Below are positions 49,247 through 60,343 of a stretch of 64,000 nucleotides of DNA, piece after piece. The notes under the pieces are model-generated. The model saw nothing but the letters and a program-made list of their open reading frames with translations. It made no database searches and had not been told where the DNA came from. The stretch is from assembly GCA_041662245.1 (NCBI GenBank), contig JBAZSW010000001.1, forward strand, positions 11,714 through 75,713, read 5' to 3'. The stretch's first letter is position 1, and every line of letters begins with the position of its first letter. The position numbers were made by a program, and so were the translations under genes. Source of the DNA: Parcubacteria group bacterium (GTDB lineage: Bacteria; Patescibacteriota; Minisyncoccia; Moranbacterales; UBA9337).

Positions 49247-50266
49247 ATGGAAAATAAATTATGGGGATCATCGACGGAAATAATTTTTAAGATTATGGCT
49301 ATTGCCTTAGGGTTGTGGTTTCTTTATCTTATTAGGGACGTTTTAGTATTATTTTTTGTGGCTATTATCGTAATGGCAGCCATTGACCCTTTGGTAAGTT
49401 GGTTTAAACTAAAGATAAAAATTCCTCGAATTATGGGGGTTTTGATAATTTATCTTTTTTTAATTTCAATTTTAGTAGCGATTATTTCTTTTATTATCCC
49501 AGCCTTATCAGGTCAATTTAGAGATTTTTTAATAGCCCTACCTAGCTATTTTCAAAAAGTTGATTATTTTCTAAGAGGCGTTTCTCTTTATGGACAATCT
49601 TATGGATTCGATTTAAATCTAGGAAAAATAAGCGAAAATTTTGGAGAAAGTTCTTTCAATATTTTTTCTACCACAGTAGGTTTTTTTAGTGGTTTGATTT
49701 CTTTTGTGGTGGTTTTTTCGATGGCTTTTTATATGTCTATTCATGAAGATGGAATGGAAAATTTTTTAGATTCAGTAACGCCCGAAAGATACAAATTAAC
49801 AGTAATAAAAATTGCCAAGAGAATAAAGAATAGAATCGGGCGTTGGATGAGCGGACAATTAGTATTGATGTTAACTATTTTCTTGCTGGACTATGCTATC
49901 CTTTATTTCTTGGGAGTTCCTTATGCTTTATTTATAGCGATGATTAGCGGATTTTTGGAAATCATTCCTTATATTGGACCAACTATTGCTGTTTCTTTAG
50001 CGACTCTGATTACTGTATTAGTTTCTCCTGTTAAAGCTATTTTTGTTTTAGTTTTCTATGTTATCGTGCATCAAATTGAAAGTAATATCATTTTTCCTCA
50101 GATAATGAAAAAAGCCGTAGGGCTAAATCCTTTGGCAGTAATACTCTCAATGTTAATTGGTTTAAAGTTGGCAGGGGTAGCAGGAGCAATTTTAGCGGTG
50201 CCTGTGGCGACTGCTGTAGGTGTAGTAGCCAAGGAGCTAATGAAAAAAAATAATGTTAAAATTTAG
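49247..50266 (+). CDS. AI-2E family transporter (PerM/UPF0118).
   Basis: Eight TM helices with the GFLEIIPYIGPTIA motif. Confidence 0.7.
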   Translation: MENKLWGSSTEIIFKIMAIALGLWFLYLIRDVLVLFFVAIIVMAAIDPLVSWFKLKIKIPRIMGVLIIYLFLISILVAIISFIIPALSGQFRDFLIALPSYFQKVDYFLRGVSLYGQSYGFDLNLGKISENFGESSFNIFSTTVGFFSGLISFVVVFSMAFYMSIHEDGMENFLDSVTPERYKLTVIKIAKRIKNRIGRWMSGQLVLMLTIFLLDYAILYFLGVPYALFIAMISGFLEIIPYIGPTIAVSLATLITVLVSPVKAIFVLVFYVIVHQIESNIIFPQIMKKAVGLNPLAVILSMLIGLKLAGVAGAILAVPVATAVGVVAKELMKKNNVKI

Positions 50267-51700: not shown

Positions 51701-51826
51701 GTTGCATATTTAGTTGAAGATGGTATATTTTATTTGTTTGAAATTTATATAAGAATCAGTTATTTAAAACGAATCATTTTAAAAATTAAATGAGTTTTGT
51801 CTAAAATAAACATAAGGGAGGTCAGC

Positions 51827-52033
51827 ATGCGCCTGTTCACTGTTGGAGAAAGGTGGGGACCACTTTCGTGTGAATATCCCAACTGTCAAAGAAAAAATGC
51901 TTTCACTATTGTTTTATCTGATGAAGAAAGTAATCTTCTCCCAGAAAAAACAGGTTTAACTGCACTCAGGTTTATTATTAGCAACAGATTTGGATTGGTT
52001 GTTTGTGATGAACACATTAGGTCTGTGACATAG
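51827..52033 (+). CDS. Hypothetical small Cys/His protein, possibly zinc-binding.
   Basis: Start moved to the Met with strong SD (aagggagg). CEYPNC...CDEH. Confidence 0.4.
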   Translation: MRLFTVGERWGPLSCEYPNCQRKNAFTIVLSDEESNLLPEKTGLTALRFIISNRFGLVVCDEHIRSVT

Positions 52034-52150: not shown

Positions 52151-52543
52151 TTAATATCTAAAGTTTACTTTAATATCCATTTTTTTCCCTTCAAAAAACT
52201 TTTTGGCGAATTGAGCAGTTTTATAGGGTGGATAAGGTTTGCAACTGAATACATCTAAATAGATAGCATTGGAATTATTGGCAAAATGTCCCGAGATAAG
52301 AGAAGTTTCTATTAACTGAGTCATAGAGAACCCTGATACGCGAGGATCTTCTCCGAAATTTACTACGACAGTTTCACCAAAAGTTTTCATTTCGATTAGC
52401 CCACAGAGTTCTTTTACAAATCGTTTTATTTCTCTCGCACTTCTCAATGTCTGGGGATTACAATGATATAAATCAATACAGGTGCTCATTCCCCAAGGAT
52501 TTTCTTTCTTGTATTTTTGGACTATTTGTTGGTCTTTGGTCAT
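52151..52543 (-). CDS. speH: S-adenosylmethionine decarboxylase proenzyme (SpeH type).
   Basis: FGETVVVNFGE...SLISGHFANNSNAIYLDVFSCK matches the AdoMetDC class 1b ES/HxSxHTxPE...VDVFxCG pattern. Confidence 0.7.
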   Translation of the reverse strand: MTKDQQIVQKYKKENPWGMSTCIDLYHCNPQTLRSAREIKRFVKELCGLIEMKTFGETVVVNFGEDPRVSGFSMTQLIETSLISGHFANNSNAIYLDVFSCKPYPPYKTAQFAKKFFEGKKMDIKVNFRY

Positions 52544-52734
52544 TTTGTGTTTGGTTATTTGAGTTTAAAAAATAAACTCAAATTTTTAAAATAAATGATT
52601 AAACAATCTTATTATAGGAGATGCTTAAAATTATGCAAGAGTCTCAACTTTGTTATTTCTTAAAATGATATTAAGTAGTAATCTTTTATTTATTTGACAT
52701 ATTTTTTATAAAGTATATACTCAAAGCATGAAAA

Positions 52735-52884
52735 TAGTTTATCAATCAAATCCAGCCAATAAAAACAATAACCGTCTTGGGCGGCCTTGTTTCTAATTGC
52801 TTAGAGGAATTGATAAATAAAAGAAACCGGTCGCCTAAAATAAGGCGATTTTGTTTTTTAAGTGAACAACAAAGGAGGCATTAA
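52735..52884 (+). promoter_or_regulatory. Conserved structured leader, copy 1: antiterminator-like GGCGG segment, terminator hairpin TCGCCT/AGGCGA, then T-run and SD.
   Basis: About 75% identical to the leader at 53215-53373. The terminator stem is kept by a G·U wobble in copy 2 (AGGTGA in place of AGGCGA). Confidence 0.55.
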
Positions 52885-53094
52885 ATGGCTTATTATACGG
52901 GAAGTATATGGGGAGTTATTTTAAACGCAGGTGGGGAACCAATTAATTGGGGAGAAATAATCGGTATTGTCGGAGAAGATTTCTTTTTGTTTGAAAGTTT
53001 TGGACAATACCCAAAATCATTGGTTCGTAAATTCAATTCTCCTAGCGATGCCATGCGTGAATTTGAAAAAATATCAGATTCAAAAAGGGCCTAA
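52885..53094 (+). CDS. Small protein (69 aa), member of a tandem paralog pair behind the conserved leader.
   Basis: Strong SD aaaggagg. Shares a W.V..N..GE motif with the 53374 product. Confidence 0.55.
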   Translation: MAYYTGSIWGVILNAGGEPINWGEIIGIVGEDFFLFESFGQYPKSLVRKFNSPSDAMREFEKISDSKRA

Positions 53095-53214
53095 ACTATG
53101 AAGAATAATATAGATTGGCCAATAAGAGGCGAAATGCTAAAAGCATTTCGCCTCAATAATTATTAGTATAAAATTTTTTAAAATTGACATAGTTTTATAA
53201 TGATATACAATGGA

Positions 53215-53373
53215 GATATGAAAAAAGTTTATCAATTAAATCTAAATAATAATAACAATAACCGCCTCGGGCGATTTTGTTTCTAATTATTTCAGATAAA
53301 ATTGATAGATAAAAGAAACCAAGTCGCCTGAAACAAGGTGATTTTTTTGTTCTTAAAAAGTGAGGGAATAATT
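53215..53373 (+). promoter_or_regulatory. Conserved structured leader, copy 2.
   Basis: See copy 1. Terminator TCGCCTgaaacAAGGTGA followed by a T7 run. Confidence 0.55.
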
Positions 53374-53571
53374 ATGCCAAATGAAACAAATGAGAAATGG
53401 TTGGTGGCTTTTAATGAGAATGGAGAAATTGTATTTTGCGGGCCAGCTAATTCGGAAAAAGTGTACGAGATTAGAACGAAGTTTGTTGTAGTCGAATGGG
53501 AGAAAGAACTTGCTGTTGGTTTTAATAATAAAAGGATATCCTCTCCCTCGAGTGCTGGATTGCCATTCTAG
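53374..53571 (+). CDS. Small protein (65 aa), paralog of the 52885 product.
   Basis: SD gagggaa. MPNETNEKWLVAFNENGEIVFCG. Confidence 0.5.
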   Translation: MPNETNEKWLVAFNENGEIVFCGPANSEKVYEIRTKFVVVEWEKELAVGFNNKRISSPSSAGLPF

Positions 53572-53693
53572 AAAAAAGTTCAAAATACCCGAGATGAAAA
53601 AATTTCATCTCGGGTAAAATGTTTTTTTGAGTATAAAAATAAAAAGATAGAACGATTGCATCCTACCTTTTTTAGAGTAACGCTTGAAATTAG

Positions 53694-53921
53694 TTAAGTC
53701 GAGAGATACTTCAGAAGAGTTGAATTTTCTTCAAACGCTTTGTTGCATTTGGTACATTTCTTGTTGAATCTTCCACCAAAAAGTCTTTCGAAGTTCGCAC
53801 TGTTGCATTGAGGACATTTATTCAATTCAATAAATTTCCAATTTTTTTCTGACGGGGAATCTTGGACATTAATTTTTCCTAGATCTTTGATGGGTAACGT
53901 AACAATTAATTTCGCAACCAT
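53694..53921 (-). CDS. Small zinc-ribbon protein.
   Basis: CPQCNS...CTKCNK pairs of CxxC. Confidence 0.45.
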   Translation of the reverse strand: MVAKLIVTLPIKDLGKINVQDSPSEKNWKFIELNKCPQCNSANFERLFGGRFNKKCTKCNKAFEENSTLLKYLST

Positions 53922-53949: not shown

Positions 53950-54141
53950 TTAGTTTAGGGATTTTCCGCAATCAGGACAAAATAAATGTTTTCCTTCAAG
54001 CTTGTAACCAAGATGGAGATAAAGACATCTATGGTTTGTCCGTAAATTTGGGTTAACTATTTTTCCGCAACTGGTGCAATGTCTGCTACATGGAAAAGCT
54101 CTGATACAGTCTAAACATTTTTTTGTAGTTTTTTCTTCCAT
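53950..54141 (-). CDS. Small zinc-ribbon protein.
   Basis: CLDC...CTSCGK...CPDCGK. Confidence 0.45.
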   Translation of the reverse strand: MEEKTTKKCLDCIRAFPCSRHCTSCGKIVNPNLRTNHRCLYLHLGYKLEGKHLFCPDCGKSLN

Positions 54142-54264: not shown

Positions 54265-54519
54265 CTAGAAAGGCATTTTCAGATCTCCCGATTTCATTTC
54301 TTTTTGCATTTTCTTTTGGACATTTTGCATAGCGCTATTTATGGATTTGAGAATATTTTTTTCTAAGTCGCTAGAAGTACGAGCTTGGTCGCTGATTTGA
54401 ACGCTTAATATTTTCATCGCACCATTAACAGTAACTTTAATTCCTTTGTAATCTTCAGTAGAATTAATGCCATCGAGCATTTTTTTCATCTGGTAAAGTT
54501 GTTTCATTTTGTCTAGCAT
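54265..54519 (-). CDS. ybaB: Nucleoid-associated protein YbaB/EbfC.
   Basis: MLDKMKQLYQMKKMLDGI...GIKVTVNGAMKILSVQI...MQNVQKKMQKEM. Confidence 0.75.
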   Translation of the reverse strand: MLDKMKQLYQMKKMLDGINSTEDYKGIKVTVNGAMKILSVQISDQARTSSDLEKNILKSINSAMQNVQKKMQKEMKSGDLKMPF

Positions 54520-54817: not shown

Positions 54818-56269
54818 ATGGCTAACGATGATGTTGTAATAAGATTTAGTGACGTTTCTTTTGAATATGAAAATGGAAAGAAAATTTTAGATGAAGCTTC
54901 TTTTGCTCTTAGAAGAGGGATGAAAGTGGCTCTCATGGGACAAAATGGAGCAGGCAAAACCAGTCTTTTTAATTTAATAATGGGGGTTAATAAACCTTCT
55001 AGCGGAAATATTTTTATCAAAGAAGGACAAACCATTGCTTGTTCTCAACAAGTGCTTCCTAGGGAGCAACTTAAACTAAAAATAAGAGAATTTTTTGCTC
55101 TTTATTTTAAGGGGGAAGATTATGAATTGGATAAAAAAATAAAAGAAGTAATGGAAGCAGTTAATGTTGCTTTGCCAATGGATAAGCCCTTAAGCGCTTT
55201 TTCTGGCGGTCAGCAGGCGAGACTCTTGATGGCTTCGGCTTTAATTCAAAATCCAGATATTTTAATGTTGGATGAGCCAACTAATAATTTGGATTATGAT
55301 GGAATTGGACATTTGATGACATTTTTGATGGCTTATGAAAAAACTTGTATCGTAATTTCTCATGATGCGGACTTTCTCAATATGTTTACAGATGGAGTAA
55401 TCTATTTGGATATTTTCAAGCACAAAATTGATCAATTTGTGGGGGATTATTATGTAGTAGTGGAAGAAATTAAGGCTCAGATAGAAAAAGAAATCAGAAA
55501 GAATGCTCAATATGAAAAAAGAATTCGAGACAATAAAGAGAAGATGAATTATTTTGCCAATAAAGGAGGTAAGATGCGTATTATCGCTAAAAAAATGCGC
55601 GATGAAATAGAACAAATGGAAGAGGATAAGGTAGATGTGCGCAGGGAAGATAAAACTATTCGCAAATTTACTATCCCTGCTCAACCGGACGTAGTGGGGA
55701 ATATAATTACGATTACATCTGTGTCAGTAATGAAGAATCATCAACCAATAGAAAAAAAAGTAGAAATAATTTTAAAGAAAAAGGAACATCTTCTTTTGAA
55801 AGGTCCTAATGGAATTGGAAAAACTACTTTATTGGAGAGATTGGCAAAAAATGATACCAAAGGAGCTAGAATCTTGGAAGGAATCAGGGTGGGCTATTAT
55901 CGTCAAGATTTTTCTACTTTAGATTTTGAAGAAACTGTATATAATACTTTGATGAATGCTATGCAAAAACAAGAGGAAGAAAAAATGCGCAGTGTAGCCA
56001 GCGGTTTTCTTATCGGAAATAGTATAATGTATTCTAAAATTGGCAGTCTTTCAGAGGGACAAAAGGGATTAGTAGCTTTTGCGCAGTTAGTCCTTCAGGA
56101 ACCGGGACTTTTAATTTTGGATGAACCAACTAATCATATTAACTTTCGTCATATTCCTATAATTGCCCAAGCACTTAAAAGCTATCAAGGAGCAATGATT
56201 GTCGTAAGCCATGTGGATGAATTTGTCAGTCAAATTGGGATTAATGAAGAACTGGATCTGGCCAAATAA
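54818..56269 (+). CDS. ABC-F family ATPase (tandem ABC domains, no TMD). Translation-factor type.
   Basis: Two Walker A sites (GQNGAGKTSL and GPNGIGKTTL), two LSGGQ-like signatures, and an inter-domain charged linker. Confidence 0.8.
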   Translation: MANDDVVIRFSDVSFEYENGKKILDEASFALRRGMKVALMGQNGAGKTSLFNLIMGVNKPSSGNIFIKEGQTIACSQQVLPREQLKLKIREFFALYFKGEDYELDKKIKEVMEAVNVALPMDKPLSAFSGGQQARLLMASALIQNPDILMLDEPTNNLDYDGIGHLMTFLMAYEKTCIVISHDADFLNMFTDGVIYLDIFKHKIDQFVGDYYVVVEEIKAQIEKEIRKNAQYEKRIRDNKEKMNYFANKGGKMRIIAKKMRDEIEQMEEDKVDVRREDKTIRKFTIPAQPDVVGNIITITSVSVMKNHQPIEKKVEIILKKKEHLLLKGPNGIGKTTLLERLAKNDTKGARILEGIRVGYYRQDFSTLDFEETVYNTLMNAMQKQEEEKMRSVASGFLIGNSIMYSKIGSLSEGQKGLVAFAQLVLQEPGLLILDEPTNHINFRHIPIIAQALKSYQGAMIVVSHVDEFVSQIGINEELDLAK

Positions 56270-59284: not shown

Positions 59285-60343
59285 ATGCAAATAAAAAATC
59301 TCAATGTTTATTTTTTTATTTTGATTTTACTGGGTATCACAGGGATAACGTACTTTTTATTCCAACCATTTTTGTCTGCTATTATAATGGCAGCTGTGAT
59401 AGCTGTTACTTTTCATGCACCCTATCAATATTTGTTAAAGAAAATCAAACACCCCCATGTCAGCTCTCTGCTGACTTGTCTTTTGGTTTTATTTGTAATT
59501 GTTTTGCCAGTATTTTTGATAATGGGTCTTATGTCCAGCGAAATCAATGACGCTTATCAAAAAATAGTATCTGAGGATAATTTCTATCAAAATCATGTTG
59601 TCAACTATTTGGATGTTTTTAAAAATTCTAAATTTTCCAAGGCAATTAATTTAAATAATTTTTTTGATCAAAATCAAATAAATAAATCAGTAGAACAAAT
59701 CAGCAGTGGATTTCTATCTCTTCTTCAGACAGTCTATCAAAATGTGGTAGGGTTAGTTATCTGGATTTTTGTGATGTTTTTTACTTTGTATTATTTTTTG
59801 GTAGAAAACAAAACTATTATAAAAAAGATAATGTATCTCAGTCCTCTTAAAGACGAATATGAGGTGGCTTTAACGGATAATTTTTCTTCAATGGTGGCGG
59901 CAACCTTGAAAGGGACACTGGTCGTGGGAGTAGTTCAGGGTATTTTAGGGGGATTAATGTTTGCTGTTGCAGGTATTCCATCTTTTATAATTTGGGGAAT
60001 TGTTATGATACTTTTTTCTGTTATCCCTGCAGTCGGGTCAGGATTAATATGGGTACCAATGGGAATTATTATGTTATTTGGAGGGCATATTTGGCAAGGA
60101 ATTTTTATTTTTATATTTGGAAGTTTAGTTATTTCTACTATTGATAATATTTTAAGAACGAAATTGGTTGGTAGGGATACAGCTATCCACCCTCTCTTAG
60201 TTTTCTTTGCTACCTTAGGAGGCATTATGTCTTTTGGAATATTAGGTTTTATAATTGGTCCTGTAATTATGGCGCTTTTTCTGACTCTTTGGGATATTTA
60301 TGGAAAGGAATTCGGCGTCCAATTAAAGAAATATAATGCTTGA
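59285..60343 (+). CDS. AI-2E family transporter (second paralog).
   Basis: Polytopic, with the VIPAVGSGLIWVPMGIIMLFGG motif. Confidence 0.7.
   Translation: MQIKNLNVYFFILILLGITGITYFLFQPFLSAIIMAAVIAVTFHAPYQYLLKKIKHPHVSSLLTCLLVLFVIVLPVFLIMGLMSSEINDAYQKIVSEDNFYQNHVVNYLDVFKNSKFSKAINLNNFFDQNQINKSVEQISSGFLSLLQTVYQNVVGLVIWIFVMFFTLYYFLVENKTIIKKIMYLSPLKDEYEVALTDNFSSMVAATLKGTLVVGVVQGILGGLMFAVAGIPSFIIWGIVMILFSVIPAVGSGLIWVPMGIIMLFGGHIWQGIFIFIFGSLVISTIDNILRTKLVGRDTAIHPLLVFFATLGGIMSFGILGFIIGPVIMALFLTLWDIYGKEFGVQLKKYNA

What the first reader, a model, noticed from the sequence alone, without database searches (positions are those of the whole stretch)
52700..53580. Two tandem modules of conserved structured leader plus small paralogous ORF: candidate riboswitch or attenuator
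Each roughly 150-nt leader contains a conserved 5' block (atgaaaaWagtttatcaat..aataaNaacaataaccgYctYgggcg), a GGCGG-containing segment that can pair with the 5' arm of the terminator (antiterminator logic), then TCGCCT-loop-AGGYGA and a U-run, then SD and ATG. The terminator stem is preserved by a C-to-U change giving a G·U pair, so a compensatory-type change and selection on structure. The downstream ORFs (69 and 65 aa) are diverged paralogs. I cannot match this to a riboswitch class from memory.
Basis: seen in the sequence. Interest (0 to 1): 0.6.

Follow-up and report, generated by a model that had tools for sequence, protein, structure and literature searches.

The report
Asparagine-run leader-peptide attenuator, duplicated
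Two tandem copies of a conserved 157-base leader from an uncultivated Parcubacteria genome most likely act as ribosome-read on/off switches, in which a tiny asparagine-rich reading frame decides whether transcription stops before two small genes of unknown function; this is a known kind of switch in a new form and an unstudied group of bacteria.

Summary
Two about 157-nt leaders are 84% identical. Each has an 11/12 sigma-70 promoter, a long hairpin, an intrinsic terminator, an SD and a small ORF. Rfam 15 has no match.

I recovered 16 distinct homologous leaders from Moranbacteria/Parcubacteria contigs. Nine contigs were reached through the downstream proteins rather than the leader sequence; six of them gave new distinct leaders.
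- They share a four-helix rod and a terminator: 95% of cells pair (30-50% when slid) and 9 pairs show compensatory change.
- An alternative antiterminator helix can form in all 14 close homologs.

- Its AUG lies 6-7 nt after the -10 box in all 16 leaders, which is leaderless geometry.
- It carries a run of 5-7 Asn codons (Gln codons in the most divergent homolog) directly before the apical hairpin.
- Its indels are all in frame, whereas 1-4-nt indels occur downstream.
- Synonymous changes are enriched.

Masking RNA as a stalled ribosome would gives the antiterminator. Masking at the stop codon gives the terminator.

Best reading (about 0.6): a ribosome-mediated transcription attenuator, not a riboswitch. 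The ancestral state is one leader before a two-gene operon of clade-restricted small paralogs. This genome duplicated the leader. Nothing here is experimentally tested.

The parts
52694..52721 (+). Promoter of module 1 (TTGACA, 16 nt, TATACT). The -10 box ends 6 nt before the ATG of the short ORF.
   Evidence: 11/12 match. The same geometry is seen in all 16 homologous leaders.
52728..52796 (+). Leader ORF 1: 22 codons, MKIVYQSNPANKNNNRLGRPCF, stop TAA. The AUG sits at the predicted transcript 5' end (leaderless).
52737..52818 (+). Rod-like hairpin P1-P4 of module 1 (anti-antiterminator). Its 5' strand is codons 4-17 of the leader ORF. The apical hairpin P4 is CCGTC-TTG-GGCGG at 52772-52784.
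52779..52794 (+). Antiterminator 5' strand of module 1: GGGCGG (region 2) and GTTTCT. It pairs either within the rod or with 52822-52836.
52822..52836 (+). Antiterminator 3' strand of module 1: AGAAAC, then TCGCCT (region 3, which is also the 5' arm of the terminator).
52829..52859 (+). Intrinsic terminator of leader 1 (GGTCGCCT-loop-AGGCGATT followed by a T run).
52874..53094 (+). SD GGAGG (52874-52878) and ORF A (52885-53094, 69 aa). Family A small protein, predicted as five strands plus a C-terminal helix.
53126..53154 (+). Terminator-like hairpin after ORF A (13-pair stem, followed by AATAATTATT rather than a clean T run).
53184..53211 (+). Promoter of module 2 (TTGACA, 16 nt, TACAAT). The -10 box ends 6 nt before the ATG.
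53218..53286 (+). Leader ORF 2: 22 codons, MKKVYQLNLNNNNNNRLGRFCF, stop TAA. Its (AAY)6 run at 53245-53262 is the longest in the window.
53227..53310 (+). Rod-like hairpin P1-P4 of module 2. The apical hairpin is CGCC-TCG-GGCG at 53263-53273.
53269..53284 (+). Antiterminator 5' strand of module 2 (GGGCGA and GTTTCT).
53314..53329 (+). Antiterminator 3' strand of module 2 (AGAAAC, then TCGCCT).
53321..53351 (+). Intrinsic terminator of leader 2 (AAGTCGCCT-loop-AGGTGATTT followed by a T run).
53374..53571 (+). ORF B (65 aa), family B small protein. In relatives it is the second gene of the operon.
53586..53616 (+). Terminator-like hairpin after ORF B (14-pair stem; tail AAATGTTTTT).

Best explanation
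Each module is a ribosome-mediated (leader-peptide) transcription attenuator on a leaderless transcript.

Proposed sequence of events:
1. Transcription starts at the A of an AUG that opens a 22-codon frame rich in asparagine codons.
2. As the RNA emerges, the frame and the next 25 nt fold into a long rod (P1-P4). The rod locks up the strand RGGCGR...GUUUCU.
3. The downstream UCGCCU/AGGYGA hairpin and its U run then form, and transcription stops before the small protein genes. This is the default OFF state.
4. A ribosome that initiates on the 5' AUG opens the rod.
5. If it runs to the stop codon, it covers RGGCGR...GUUUCU itself, and the terminator still forms.
6. If it stalls in the Asn run for lack of charged tRNA(Asn), it holds the rod's 5' strand but leaves RGGCGR...GUUUCU free. 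That strand then pairs with AGAAAC...UCGCCU as an antiterminator, and RNA polymerase reads through into the ORFs.

What is shown computationally: the parts, their conservation, the mutually exclusive pairings, and the coding signature of the short frame.

What is inferred: the transcription start, translation of the frame, stalling at Asn codons, and the direction of regulation.

History of the locus: the ancestral arrangement is one leader in front of a two-gene operon of small paralogs. In this genome and a close relative the leader, with its promoter, was duplicated in front of the second gene.
For: 1. Homologs.
- 16 distinct leaders were recovered. One came from a genome scan, four new distinct leaders from the five true hits of a metagenome pattern scan, and one (L035) from a 95%-identical copy of ORF B.
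- Nine contigs (L041-L048, L050, L051) were reached only through the downstream proteins. All nine carry the leader; six of them (L041, L044-L048) gave new distinct leaders alongside L050 and L051.
- No second copy occurs per locus except in the window.

2. RNA structure.
- The rod plus terminator is 95% paired, against 30-50% when the partners are slid.
- 9 pairs and 15 cells show changes on both sides, and 0-2 of 500 shuffles reach these values.
- RNAalifold predicts the same structure independently.
- The divergent L051 leader keeps a rod of about 30 bp even though most stem bases differ.

3. Antiterminator.
- Both antiterminator helices can pair in 14/14 close homologs, against 31-61% when slid.
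- Masking everything 5' of region 2 makes the antiterminator the minimum-energy fold in all 14 (-16.6 to -23.4 kcal/mol).
- Masking through the stop codon +10 leaves only the terminator (-8 to -12 kcal/mol).

4. Short ORF.
- All 16 leaders have a -10 box, then 6-7 nt, then ATG.
- The first 9 nt are unpaired.
- The frame is 21-23 codons in all.
- Inside the frame, indels are +3, -3 or a compensated +1/-1. In the next 58 columns there are 1-, 2-, 3- and 4-nt indels at five or more sites.
- Leu18 uses five synonymous codons.
- 14 of 30 minimal substitution steps are synonymous, against 21-29% expected (P = 0.001-0.04).

5. Codon run.
- 5-7 Asn codons end exactly at the apical hairpin.
- Asn makes up 5.9% of residues in the window's long ORFs, and there is no run of 5 or more in 17,595 residues.
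- L051 has Gln-Gln-Gly-Gln-Gln-Asn at the same place.

6. Other points.
- L040 is a natural variant that lacks exactly the terminator.
- No Rfam family matches.
Against: - There are no expression data. The transcription start, translation of the short ORF and premature termination are all inferred.
- The sequences are closely related (83-85% column identity apart from L051), so the covariation is modest. The alignment behind one search was fitted to the model.
- The antiterminator shows no compensatory change, because its bases are invariant. In L051 it is the best fold only before the terminator 3' arm is made, not at equilibrium (-17.1 versus -19.1 kcal/mol).
- Several 'synonymous' sites are also wobble-tolerant positions in helices, so coding and structural constraints are confounded.
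- The last two codons and the stop never vary, which reflects RNA-level rather than peptide-level constraint.
- The regulated genes have no known link to asparagine. The Asn-to-Gln switch in L051, in front of the same genes, is not what classical amino-acid attenuators show.
- The A-rich AAY/CAA triplets could be kept simply because they pair with the U-rich 3' strand.
Confidence: 0.6

Rival explanations
1. It is a riboswitch. The P1-P4 rod is an aptamer for an unknown small molecule or ion, and ligand binding stabilises the rod (OFF) or destabilises it (ON). The ATG-to-TAA frame is incidental.
For: - A conserved, covarying structure sits directly upstream of a terminator/antiterminator platform.
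- Nucleotide conservation is very high, including the never-varying TGTTTCTAATT.
- No known class matches, so it would be a new one.
Against: - The structure is an unbranched rod.
- The junction between P2 and P1 on the 3' side varies from 0 to 5 nt. The P3 register slides by 3 nt between lineages. The internal loops differ in L051. This is unlike a precise binding pocket.
- A riboswitch does not explain the ATG fixed 6-7 nt after the -10 box, the in-frame-only indels, the synonymous excess, or the Asn/Gln codon run.
Confidence: 0.12
2. It is protein-mediated attenuation. An RNA-binding protein binds the rod or the (AAN)n repeat and sets the terminator/antiterminator choice. The protein could be the downstream small beta-barrel proteins acting in feedback.
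For: - ORF A is confidently predicted (pLDDT 88) as a small five-stranded barrel plus a helix.
- Its nearest, non-significant, structural neighbours include Sm-like/Hfq, KOW/L24 and OapB RNA binders.
- From general knowledge, AAYAAYAAY repeats resemble the A-R-N triplets bound by the Hfq distal face.
- Leader and proteins co-occur in every locus reached through the proteins.
Against: - No fold match is significant (best E = 0.27). The helix is C-terminal, unlike the Sm fold.
- L002 has the same leader in front of an unrelated Cys-rich ORF.
- This reading does not explain the coding signature of the short frame.
Confidence: 0.12
3. The conserved unit is an independent small gene, either a 125-nt sRNA or a 22-aa peptide with its own function and its own promoter and terminator. 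The ORFs downstream are expressed only by incidental read-through.
For: - The unit is complete, with its own promoter and terminator.
- It is more conserved than the downstream proteins. L002 and L050 share a leader but have different downstream ORFs.
- Released attenuator RNAs and leader peptides can act in trans in other bacteria (abstracts of PMC6614838 and PMC7298713).
Against: - The downstream ORFs have strong SDs but no promoter of their own between terminator and start.
- A conserved antiterminator overlapping the terminator has no purpose in a stand-alone gene.
- The peptide diverges strongly in L051, while the architecture is kept.
Confidence: 0.08

Closest known systems
Classical ribosome-mediated attenuators of amino-acid operons (trpL, hisL, pheL, thrL, leuL, ilvL types)
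   Same: - A short leader ORF carries a tandem run of one amino acid's codons.
- Four segments pair as 1:2 plus 3:4 (terminator), or as 2:3 (antiterminator).
- The codon run lies just upstream of, or inside, segment 1.
- The stop codon is placed so that a finishing ribosome covers segment 2.
   Different: - The leader ORF has no 5' UTR or SD: the AUG is at the predicted +1.
- The whole ORF is embedded in one long four-helix rod rather than a short 1:2 hairpin.
- The codons are Asn (Gln in one lineage), which is not among the classical types. A literature search found no Asn case.
- The regulated genes are two clade-specific small proteins of unknown function, not a biosynthetic operon.
- The host is a CPR bacterium. 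That CPR bacteria generally lack amino-acid biosynthesis is general knowledge and was not tested here.
Leaderless polycysteine short ORFs that act as cysteine-responsive attenuators in mycobacteria (Canestrari et al., bioRxiv 10.1101/834739)
   Same: - A leaderless short ORF is the first cistron.
- It carries a run of one amino acid's codons.
- Ribosome stalling in the run remodels downstream RNA structure to switch on the operon (abstract).
   Different: [quoted passage not shown] Here the regulated structure is an intrinsic terminator, and the SD is not sequestered in the predicted folds.
- The codons are Cys there and Asn/Gln here.
- The mycobacterial system is linked to cysteine metabolism genes. 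Here the cargo is unknown.
Riboswitches with a terminator/antiterminator expression platform
   Same: A structured leader of about 100 nt is followed by a competing antiterminator and an intrinsic terminator, then an SD and a gene.
   Different: - There is no Rfam match.
- There is no multi-helix junction or conserved pocket.
- The 'aptamer' is a translated frame with coding signatures.

Membership tests
Ribosome-mediated (leader-peptide) transcription attenuator | A short translatable ORF at the 5' end of the leader | tested here: met
   An ATG lies 6-7 nt after the -10 box in 16/16 leaders. The frame is 21-23 codons with a conserved stop, in-frame-only indels and a synonymous excess. Translation itself is not shown.
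Ribosome-mediated (leader-peptide) transcription attenuator | A tandem run of regulatory codons for one amino acid | tested here: met
   There are 5-7 Asn codons in 15 leaders (3 consecutive in module 1, 6 in module 2). No Asn run of 5 or more occurs in 17,595 residues of the window's ORFs. L051 has 4 Gln plus 1 Asn instead.
Ribosome-mediated (leader-peptide) transcription attenuator | An intrinsic terminator between the leader ORF and the structural gene | tested here: met
   (52829-52850 and 53321-53344, each with a T run). It is conserved in 15 of 16 homologs, and L040 has it deleted.
Ribosome-mediated (leader-peptide) transcription attenuator | A mutually exclusive antiterminator and anti-antiterminator, positioned so that ribosome location selects the fold | tested here: met
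   Pairing is 100% conserved in the 14 close homologs. Masked folding switches between antiterminator and terminator. It is weaker in L051. There is no covariation in the antiterminator.
Ribosome-mediated (leader-peptide) transcription attenuator | Regulated genes belong to the metabolism of the cognate amino acid | tested here: inconclusive
   The downstream proteins have no Pfam match, no significant structural neighbour and only about 9 clusters of relatives. No Asn-related gene was found in the window.
Ribosome-mediated (leader-peptide) transcription attenuator | Read-through responds to charged-tRNA supply | not testable with these tools
   This needs in vivo or coupled in vitro transcription-translation assays.
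Known riboswitch classes (Rfam 15) | A match to a curated covariance model | tested here: not met
   No family reaches its gathering score in the window except tRNA. The best sub-threshold hits in 52500-53700 are unrelated snoRNA, miRNA and sRNA models at 14-27 bits.
Riboswitch (generic) | A conserved ligand pocket formed by invariant unpaired nucleotides or a helical junction | tested here: not met
   The structure is an unbranched rod. The P2/P1 junction is 0-5 nt, the P3 register shifts, and the loop of P4 varies at all three positions.
Mycobacterial leaderless poly-Cys sORF attenuators | A stalled ribosome unmasks a sequestered ribosome-binding site (translational attenuation) | tested here: not met
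   The SD of the downstream ORF lies beyond the terminator and is not part of a conserved helix. Control here is via an intrinsic terminator. The defining mechanism is taken from the abstract.
T-box leaders | A specifier loop and the T-box antiterminator sequence | tested here: not met
   There is no T-box hit, even at E up to 10.

The most novel reading that the evidence does not exclude
The leader could be a sensor of amide-aminoacyl-tRNA supply: Asn-tRNA(Asn) in most lineages and Gln-tRNA(Gln) in the L051 lineage. That would make it a sensor of the transamidation (GatCAB) route, or of glutamine-derived nitrogen, in host-dependent CPR bacteria. It would switch on a clade-specific pair of small beta-barrel proteins as starvation effectors. 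If so, it would be the first amino-acid-sensing attenuator described in the Candidate Phyla Radiation and the first Asn/Gln-specific leader-peptide attenuator.
Probability: 0.2. Interest if true: 0.7.

Novelty: new variant of a known kind. Interest (0 to 1): 0.5.

Why it matters
Gene regulation in CPR/Patescibacteria is almost unexplored, and no cis-regulatory RNA of this kind is catalogued for them (Rfam has no match). A compact, self-contained attenuator that reads ribosome progress on a leaderless Asn-run frame would have three consequences:
- It would show that these minimal, largely non-biosynthetic cells monitor charged-tRNA supply.
- It would point to a pair of uncharacterised small proteins as the output of that signal.
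- It would provide a native regulatory part for the genetic tools now being built for Patescibacteria.

It would also extend leader-peptide attenuation to an amino acid (Asn, or Gln in one lineage) and a transcript type (leaderless, terminator-based) that have not been described together.

Tried and rejected
- **Rfam.** A gathering-threshold scan of the whole window and a permissive scan of 52500-53700 found nothing relevant.
- **Single-sequence protein searches.** ORF A and ORF B found only themselves or a 95% identical copy. Only a profile of locus-derived relatives found the family.
- **Pfam.** There was no hit for the small proteins.
- **Viral-contig pattern scans.** Two scans gave only chance hits, as blastn confirmed.
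- **Genome scan.** The Flavipsychrobacter hit is a chance match inside a coding region. My genome pattern was too narrow: it required AACCG, whereas most relatives have AATCG.
- **RiPP-precursor idea** for the 22-aa peptide (C-terminal Cys-Phe). Rejected because there is no modifying enzyme nearby, the peptide diverges strongly in L051, and the TGT TTC TAA conservation is at the nucleotide level.
- **Mobile promoter-cassette idea.** Rejected because the locus is syntenic in 7 of the relatives' loci (next to rsmI in L038, L039 and L046; next to the ybaB gene in L002, L035 and L041, plus the ABC-F gene in L002) and there is one copy per locus; the other loci (L042-L045, L047, L051) show different neighbours.
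- **SD sequestration (translational attenuation).** No conserved pairing to the SD was seen.
- **Link to Asn metabolism.** I looked for Asn-related genes, aminoacyl-tRNA synthetases and GatCAB in the window and found none. The only tRNAs are Gly, Ala and Glu.
Full report
**What is there.** The window comes from a Parcubacteria-group (CPR) metagenome-assembled genome; the source's own name for ORF A says so. Between 52690 and 53620 lie two head-to-tail modules.
- Each module has a near-consensus sigma-70 promoter. These are TTGACA-16-TATACT at 52694-52721 and TTGACA-16-TACAAT at 53184-53211, both 11/12 and the two best matches in the region.
- Each then has a leader of about 157 nt, an intrinsic terminator (52829-52850 and 53321-53344, each followed by a T run), a Shine-Dalgarno sequence and a small ORF (52885-53094, 69 aa; 53374-53571, 65 aa).
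- Each ORF is followed by its own strong terminator-like hairpin, though without a clean T run.
- The two leaders are 84% identical including the promoters.
- The signature block occurs exactly twice in 64 kb, against 0.01 expected.
- Both leaders fold more stably than shuffled controls (z = -2.3 and -4.3).

**Not a catalogued RNA.** Rfam 15 finds only three tRNAs in the window at gathering thresholds. Nothing meaningful appears in 52500-53700 even at E up to 10.

**Relatives.**
- ORF A and ORF B alone have no detectable relatives beyond a 95% identical copy.
- A DNA pattern scan of species-representative genomes found one true homolog (L002, a Moraniibacteriota MAG) and one chance hit.
- A scan of metagenome contigs found five true homologs.
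- In those loci the leader precedes two adjacent small ORFs that align with ORF A and ORF B respectively.
- A profile of these proteins retrieved only 16 proteins, all from Moranbacteria/Parcubacteria.
- An exhaustive profile search of 1.84 billion cluster representatives found about 9 clusters, plus weak hits to beta-propeller repeat proteins.
- Nine contigs reached through the proteins (L041-L048, L050, L051), independently of the leader sequence, all carry the leader upstream.
- This gives 16 distinct leaders, including one very divergent one (L051: nhmmer E = 1e-6, 43.6 bits with the covariance model).
- There is one leader per locus everywhere except in the window. Its close relative L035 shows the end of ORF A, its terminator and then the module-2 leader.

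The ancestral state is therefore one leader plus a two-gene operon, and this lineage duplicated the promoter and leader in front of the second gene. The locus is syntenic in 7 of the relatives' loci. It lies downstream of rsmI in L038, L039 and L046, and next to the ybaB gene in L002, L035 and L041, plus the zinc-ribbon genes and the ABC-F gene in L002. The other loci (L042-L045, L047, L051) show different neighbours.

**RNA structure.** All leaders fold into an unbranched rod of four helices (P1 to P4), followed by the terminator.
- On a MAFFT alignment of 14 leaders, 95.5% of cells pair, against 31-49% when the 3' partners are slid. Five pairs show changes on both sides.
- On a covariance-model alignment of all 16 leaders, 95% of cells pair, 9 pairs and 15 cells are compensatory, and 0-2 of 500 shuffles reach these values. 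This alignment is fitted to the model.
- RNAalifold predicts the same rod and terminator on its own.
- The clearest covariation is in P2: AUCU/AGAU versus AUCC/GGAU versus AUUU/AAAU, and an A-U to G-C change in L047.
- P1 has one pair that is U-A, U.G or C-G. The outer pair of P4 is C-G or U-A.
- L051 keeps a rod of about 30 bp although most stem bases differ.

**Alternative pairing.**
- RGGCGR is the 3' half of P4. GUUUCU is the 3' strand of P3 together with the end of the short frame.
- These two are complementary to AGAAAC and UCGCCU, the latter being the 5' arm of the terminator.
- Both helices can form in 14/14 close homologs (100% of cells, against 31-61% when slid). Their bases are invariant, so there is no covariation.
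- When everything 5' of RGGCGR is made unavailable, the antiterminator becomes the minimum-energy fold in all 14 leaders (-16.6 to -23.4 kcal/mol).
- When the RNA is masked through the stop codon plus 10 nt, only the terminator forms (-8 to -12 kcal/mol).
- In L051 the equivalent helix (GCGG:UCGC plus CUGG:CCAG) is the best fold before the terminator 3' arm exists (-13.9 kcal/mol). It is slightly less stable than the terminator conformer at equilibrium (-17.1 versus -19.1 kcal/mol).

**The overlooked short ORF.** The 'conserved 5' block' starts with an ATG.
- In all 16 leaders this ATG lies 6-7 nt after the -10 hexamer. By the usual spacing for sigma-70 promoters (established knowledge), that is where the transcript should begin, so the mRNA would be leaderless.
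- The first 9 nt are unpaired in every predicted fold.
- The frame is 21-23 codons. It ends at a conserved stop inside the rod's 3' strand.
- The consensus peptide is MKRIYQSNPNNNNNNRLGRACF. In the window the peptides are MKIVYQSNPANKNNNRLGRPCF and MKKVYQLNLNNNNNNRLGRFCF.
- Inside the frame, length changes are +3 (L037), -3 (L044) or a +1/-1 pair four bases apart (L035). The next 58 alignment columns carry 1-, 2-, 3- and 4-nt indels at five or more sites.
- Leu18 is encoded by TTA, TTG, CTT, CTC and CTA.
- Of 30 minimal substitution steps, 14 are synonymous, against 21-29% expected (P about 0.001-0.04, depending on the transition bias assumed).
- These signals are partly confounded with wobble-tolerant helix positions. 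The last two codons plus the stop never vary, which indicates RNA-level constraint there.

**The codon run.**
- The run of 5-7 Asn codons ends exactly at the 5' arm of P4.
- Asn is 5.9% of residues in the window's long ORFs, and there is no run of 5 or more in 17,595 residues.
- The (AAY)6 of module 2 is the longest such run on either strand of the window.
- In L051 the same position reads Gln-Gln-Gly-Gln-Gln-Asn.

**Mechanism proposed.** The default state is rod plus terminator, which is OFF.
- A ribosome that loads on the 5' AUG and stalls early in the Asn run would hold the rod's 5' strand, and with it the 5' arm of P4. It would leave RGGCGR...GUUUCU free to capture AGAAAC...UCGCCU as these emerge, which prevents the terminator (ON).
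- A ribosome that reaches the stop codon would cover RGGCGR...GUUUCU, so the terminator forms (OFF).
- The footprint distances assumed (about 12-15 nt 3' of the A site) are taken from what is known for E. coli ribosomes.
- Shown here, computationally: the parts, their conservation, the exclusivity of the pairings and the coding signature.
- Inferred: the start site, translation, stalling and the sign of the response.
- A natural variant (L040) lacks exactly the terminator hairpin and T run while keeping the rod and the SD. It is a ready-made 'constitutive' allele, unless it is an assembly artefact.

**Why not a riboswitch.** The rod has no junction. The 3' linker between P2 and P1 ranges from 0 to 5 nt. 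The only C in the 5' strand of P3 slides by one codon between lineages. All three loop positions of P4 vary. None of this suggests a ligand pocket, and a riboswitch would not need the ATG geometry or frame conservation. I keep the riboswitch at about 0.12.

**Other rivals.**
- A protein-mediated switch is kept at about 0.12. ORF A is confidently modelled (pLDDT 88) as five strands plus a C-terminal helix. Its structural neighbours are non-significant small barrels, including Hfq, L24/KOW and OapB (best E = 0.27). L002 has the same leader in front of an unrelated Cys-rich ORF.
- A stand-alone sRNA or peptide gene is kept at about 0.08. A conserved antiterminator would then be pointless.

**Comparison with known systems.**
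- In logic this is a classical leader-peptide attenuator. It differs in four ways: it is leaderless, the whole frame is embedded in one long rod, it uses Asn (or Gln) codons, and it controls clade-specific small proteins rather than a biosynthetic operon.
- The nearest published relative in concept is the set of leaderless polycysteine short ORFs of mycobacteria. Those act by unmasking a ribosome-binding site rather than a terminator (10.1101/834739, abstract).
- Literature searches found no Asn-codon leader peptide and no cis-regulatory RNA described for Parcubacteria.

**Open questions.**
- Why Asn, and why the switch to Gln in L051? One possibility is that both report amide-aminoacyl-tRNA supply. 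This is untested: no aminoacyl-tRNA synthetase, GatCAB or Asn-metabolism gene lies in the window, and its tRNAs are Gly, Ala and Glu.
- The alternative is that A-rich triplets are kept mainly for pairing with the U-rich 3' strand, and that the ribosome senses translation in general.

**Verdict.** The element is real and conserved, and it is absent from Rfam. It is most likely a ribosome-mediated transcription attenuator (confidence about 0.6) that this genome has duplicated. I rate it a new variant of a known kind, of moderate interest.

Noticed in passing
L040:8492-8616 compared with L036:9990-10151: Two nearly identical Moranbacteria contigs differ by a 37-nt deletion. It removes exactly the leader terminator hairpin and its T run (GGT|CGCC...GTTAAAA|TAAGAGG) and leaves the rod and the SD intact. 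This is either a natural constitutive allele or an assembly artefact.
   Followed up: partly
L051:2590-2737 (also L052 and L053): This is a very divergent homolog of the leader, in front of the same two-gene operon. It keeps the promoter-to-ATG geometry, a 21-codon frame, a roughly 30-bp rod and a terminator. The frame reads MKISYRLQQGQQNIRLKRLGF, with a Gln-codon run in place of the Asn run.
   Followed up: partly
L002:6564-6737 (minus strand): In a syntenic Moraniibacteriota locus (ybaB, ABC-F and zinc-ribbon genes nearby) the same leader precedes an unrelated 57-aa Cys-rich ORF (CxxC...CxxC) with no Pfam match. L050 has an almost identical leader in front of a normal family-A gene.
   Followed up: partly
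Proteins P0007, P0009, P0010, P0012, P0016 (family A) and P0005, P0008, P0011, P0014 (family B): Most family A proteins end in a Cys motif (M-x-C-E-C/G-L/F/Y). Most family B proteins end in C-G-K-A-x-x-C. Both window copies lack these tails. The leader peptide itself ends in Cys-Phe. No explanation was found.
   Followed up: no
L048:70-230: The 5' strand of P2 is of the AUCC type (as in L036), while its 3' strand is of the AAAU type (as in L041). This gives two C.A mismatches and looks like a recombinant or a chimeric assembly of two leader types.
   Followed up: no
window 52151-52543 (minus strand): A SpeH-like S-adenosylmethionine decarboxylase gene (Pfam E = 1e-21), together with a 450-bp stretch containing an unannotated 78-aa ORF (51797-52033), lies between rsmI and the first leader. 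In L039 and L046 the leader follows rsmI directly.
   Followed up: no
window 53694-53921 and 53950-54141 (minus strand): Two small zinc-ribbon-like proteins (75 and 63 aa; Pfam hits are weak and below threshold) converge on the modules. They are followed by ybaB (54265-54519) and an ABC-F ATPase gene (54818-56269). L002 has ybaB and the ABC-F gene in the same relative order, with a 94-aa Cys-rich ORF (not scanned against Pfam) in the corresponding position.
   Followed up: partly
P0020-P0023: The small-protein profile gives weak multi-stretch hits (E about 1e-5, 4-6 stretches) to large proteins, one of which carries SBBP/RCC1-like beta-propeller repeats (the other three show only FlgD-Ig/secretion-tail or weak cupredoxin hits). 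The W-x-V-x-F...G...W-G motif may be blade-like, or the hits may be compositional.
   Followed up: partly
window 49247-50266 and 59285-60343: Two AI-2E family transporter (PerM-like) paralogs lie within 10 kb of each other on the same strand.
   Followed up: no
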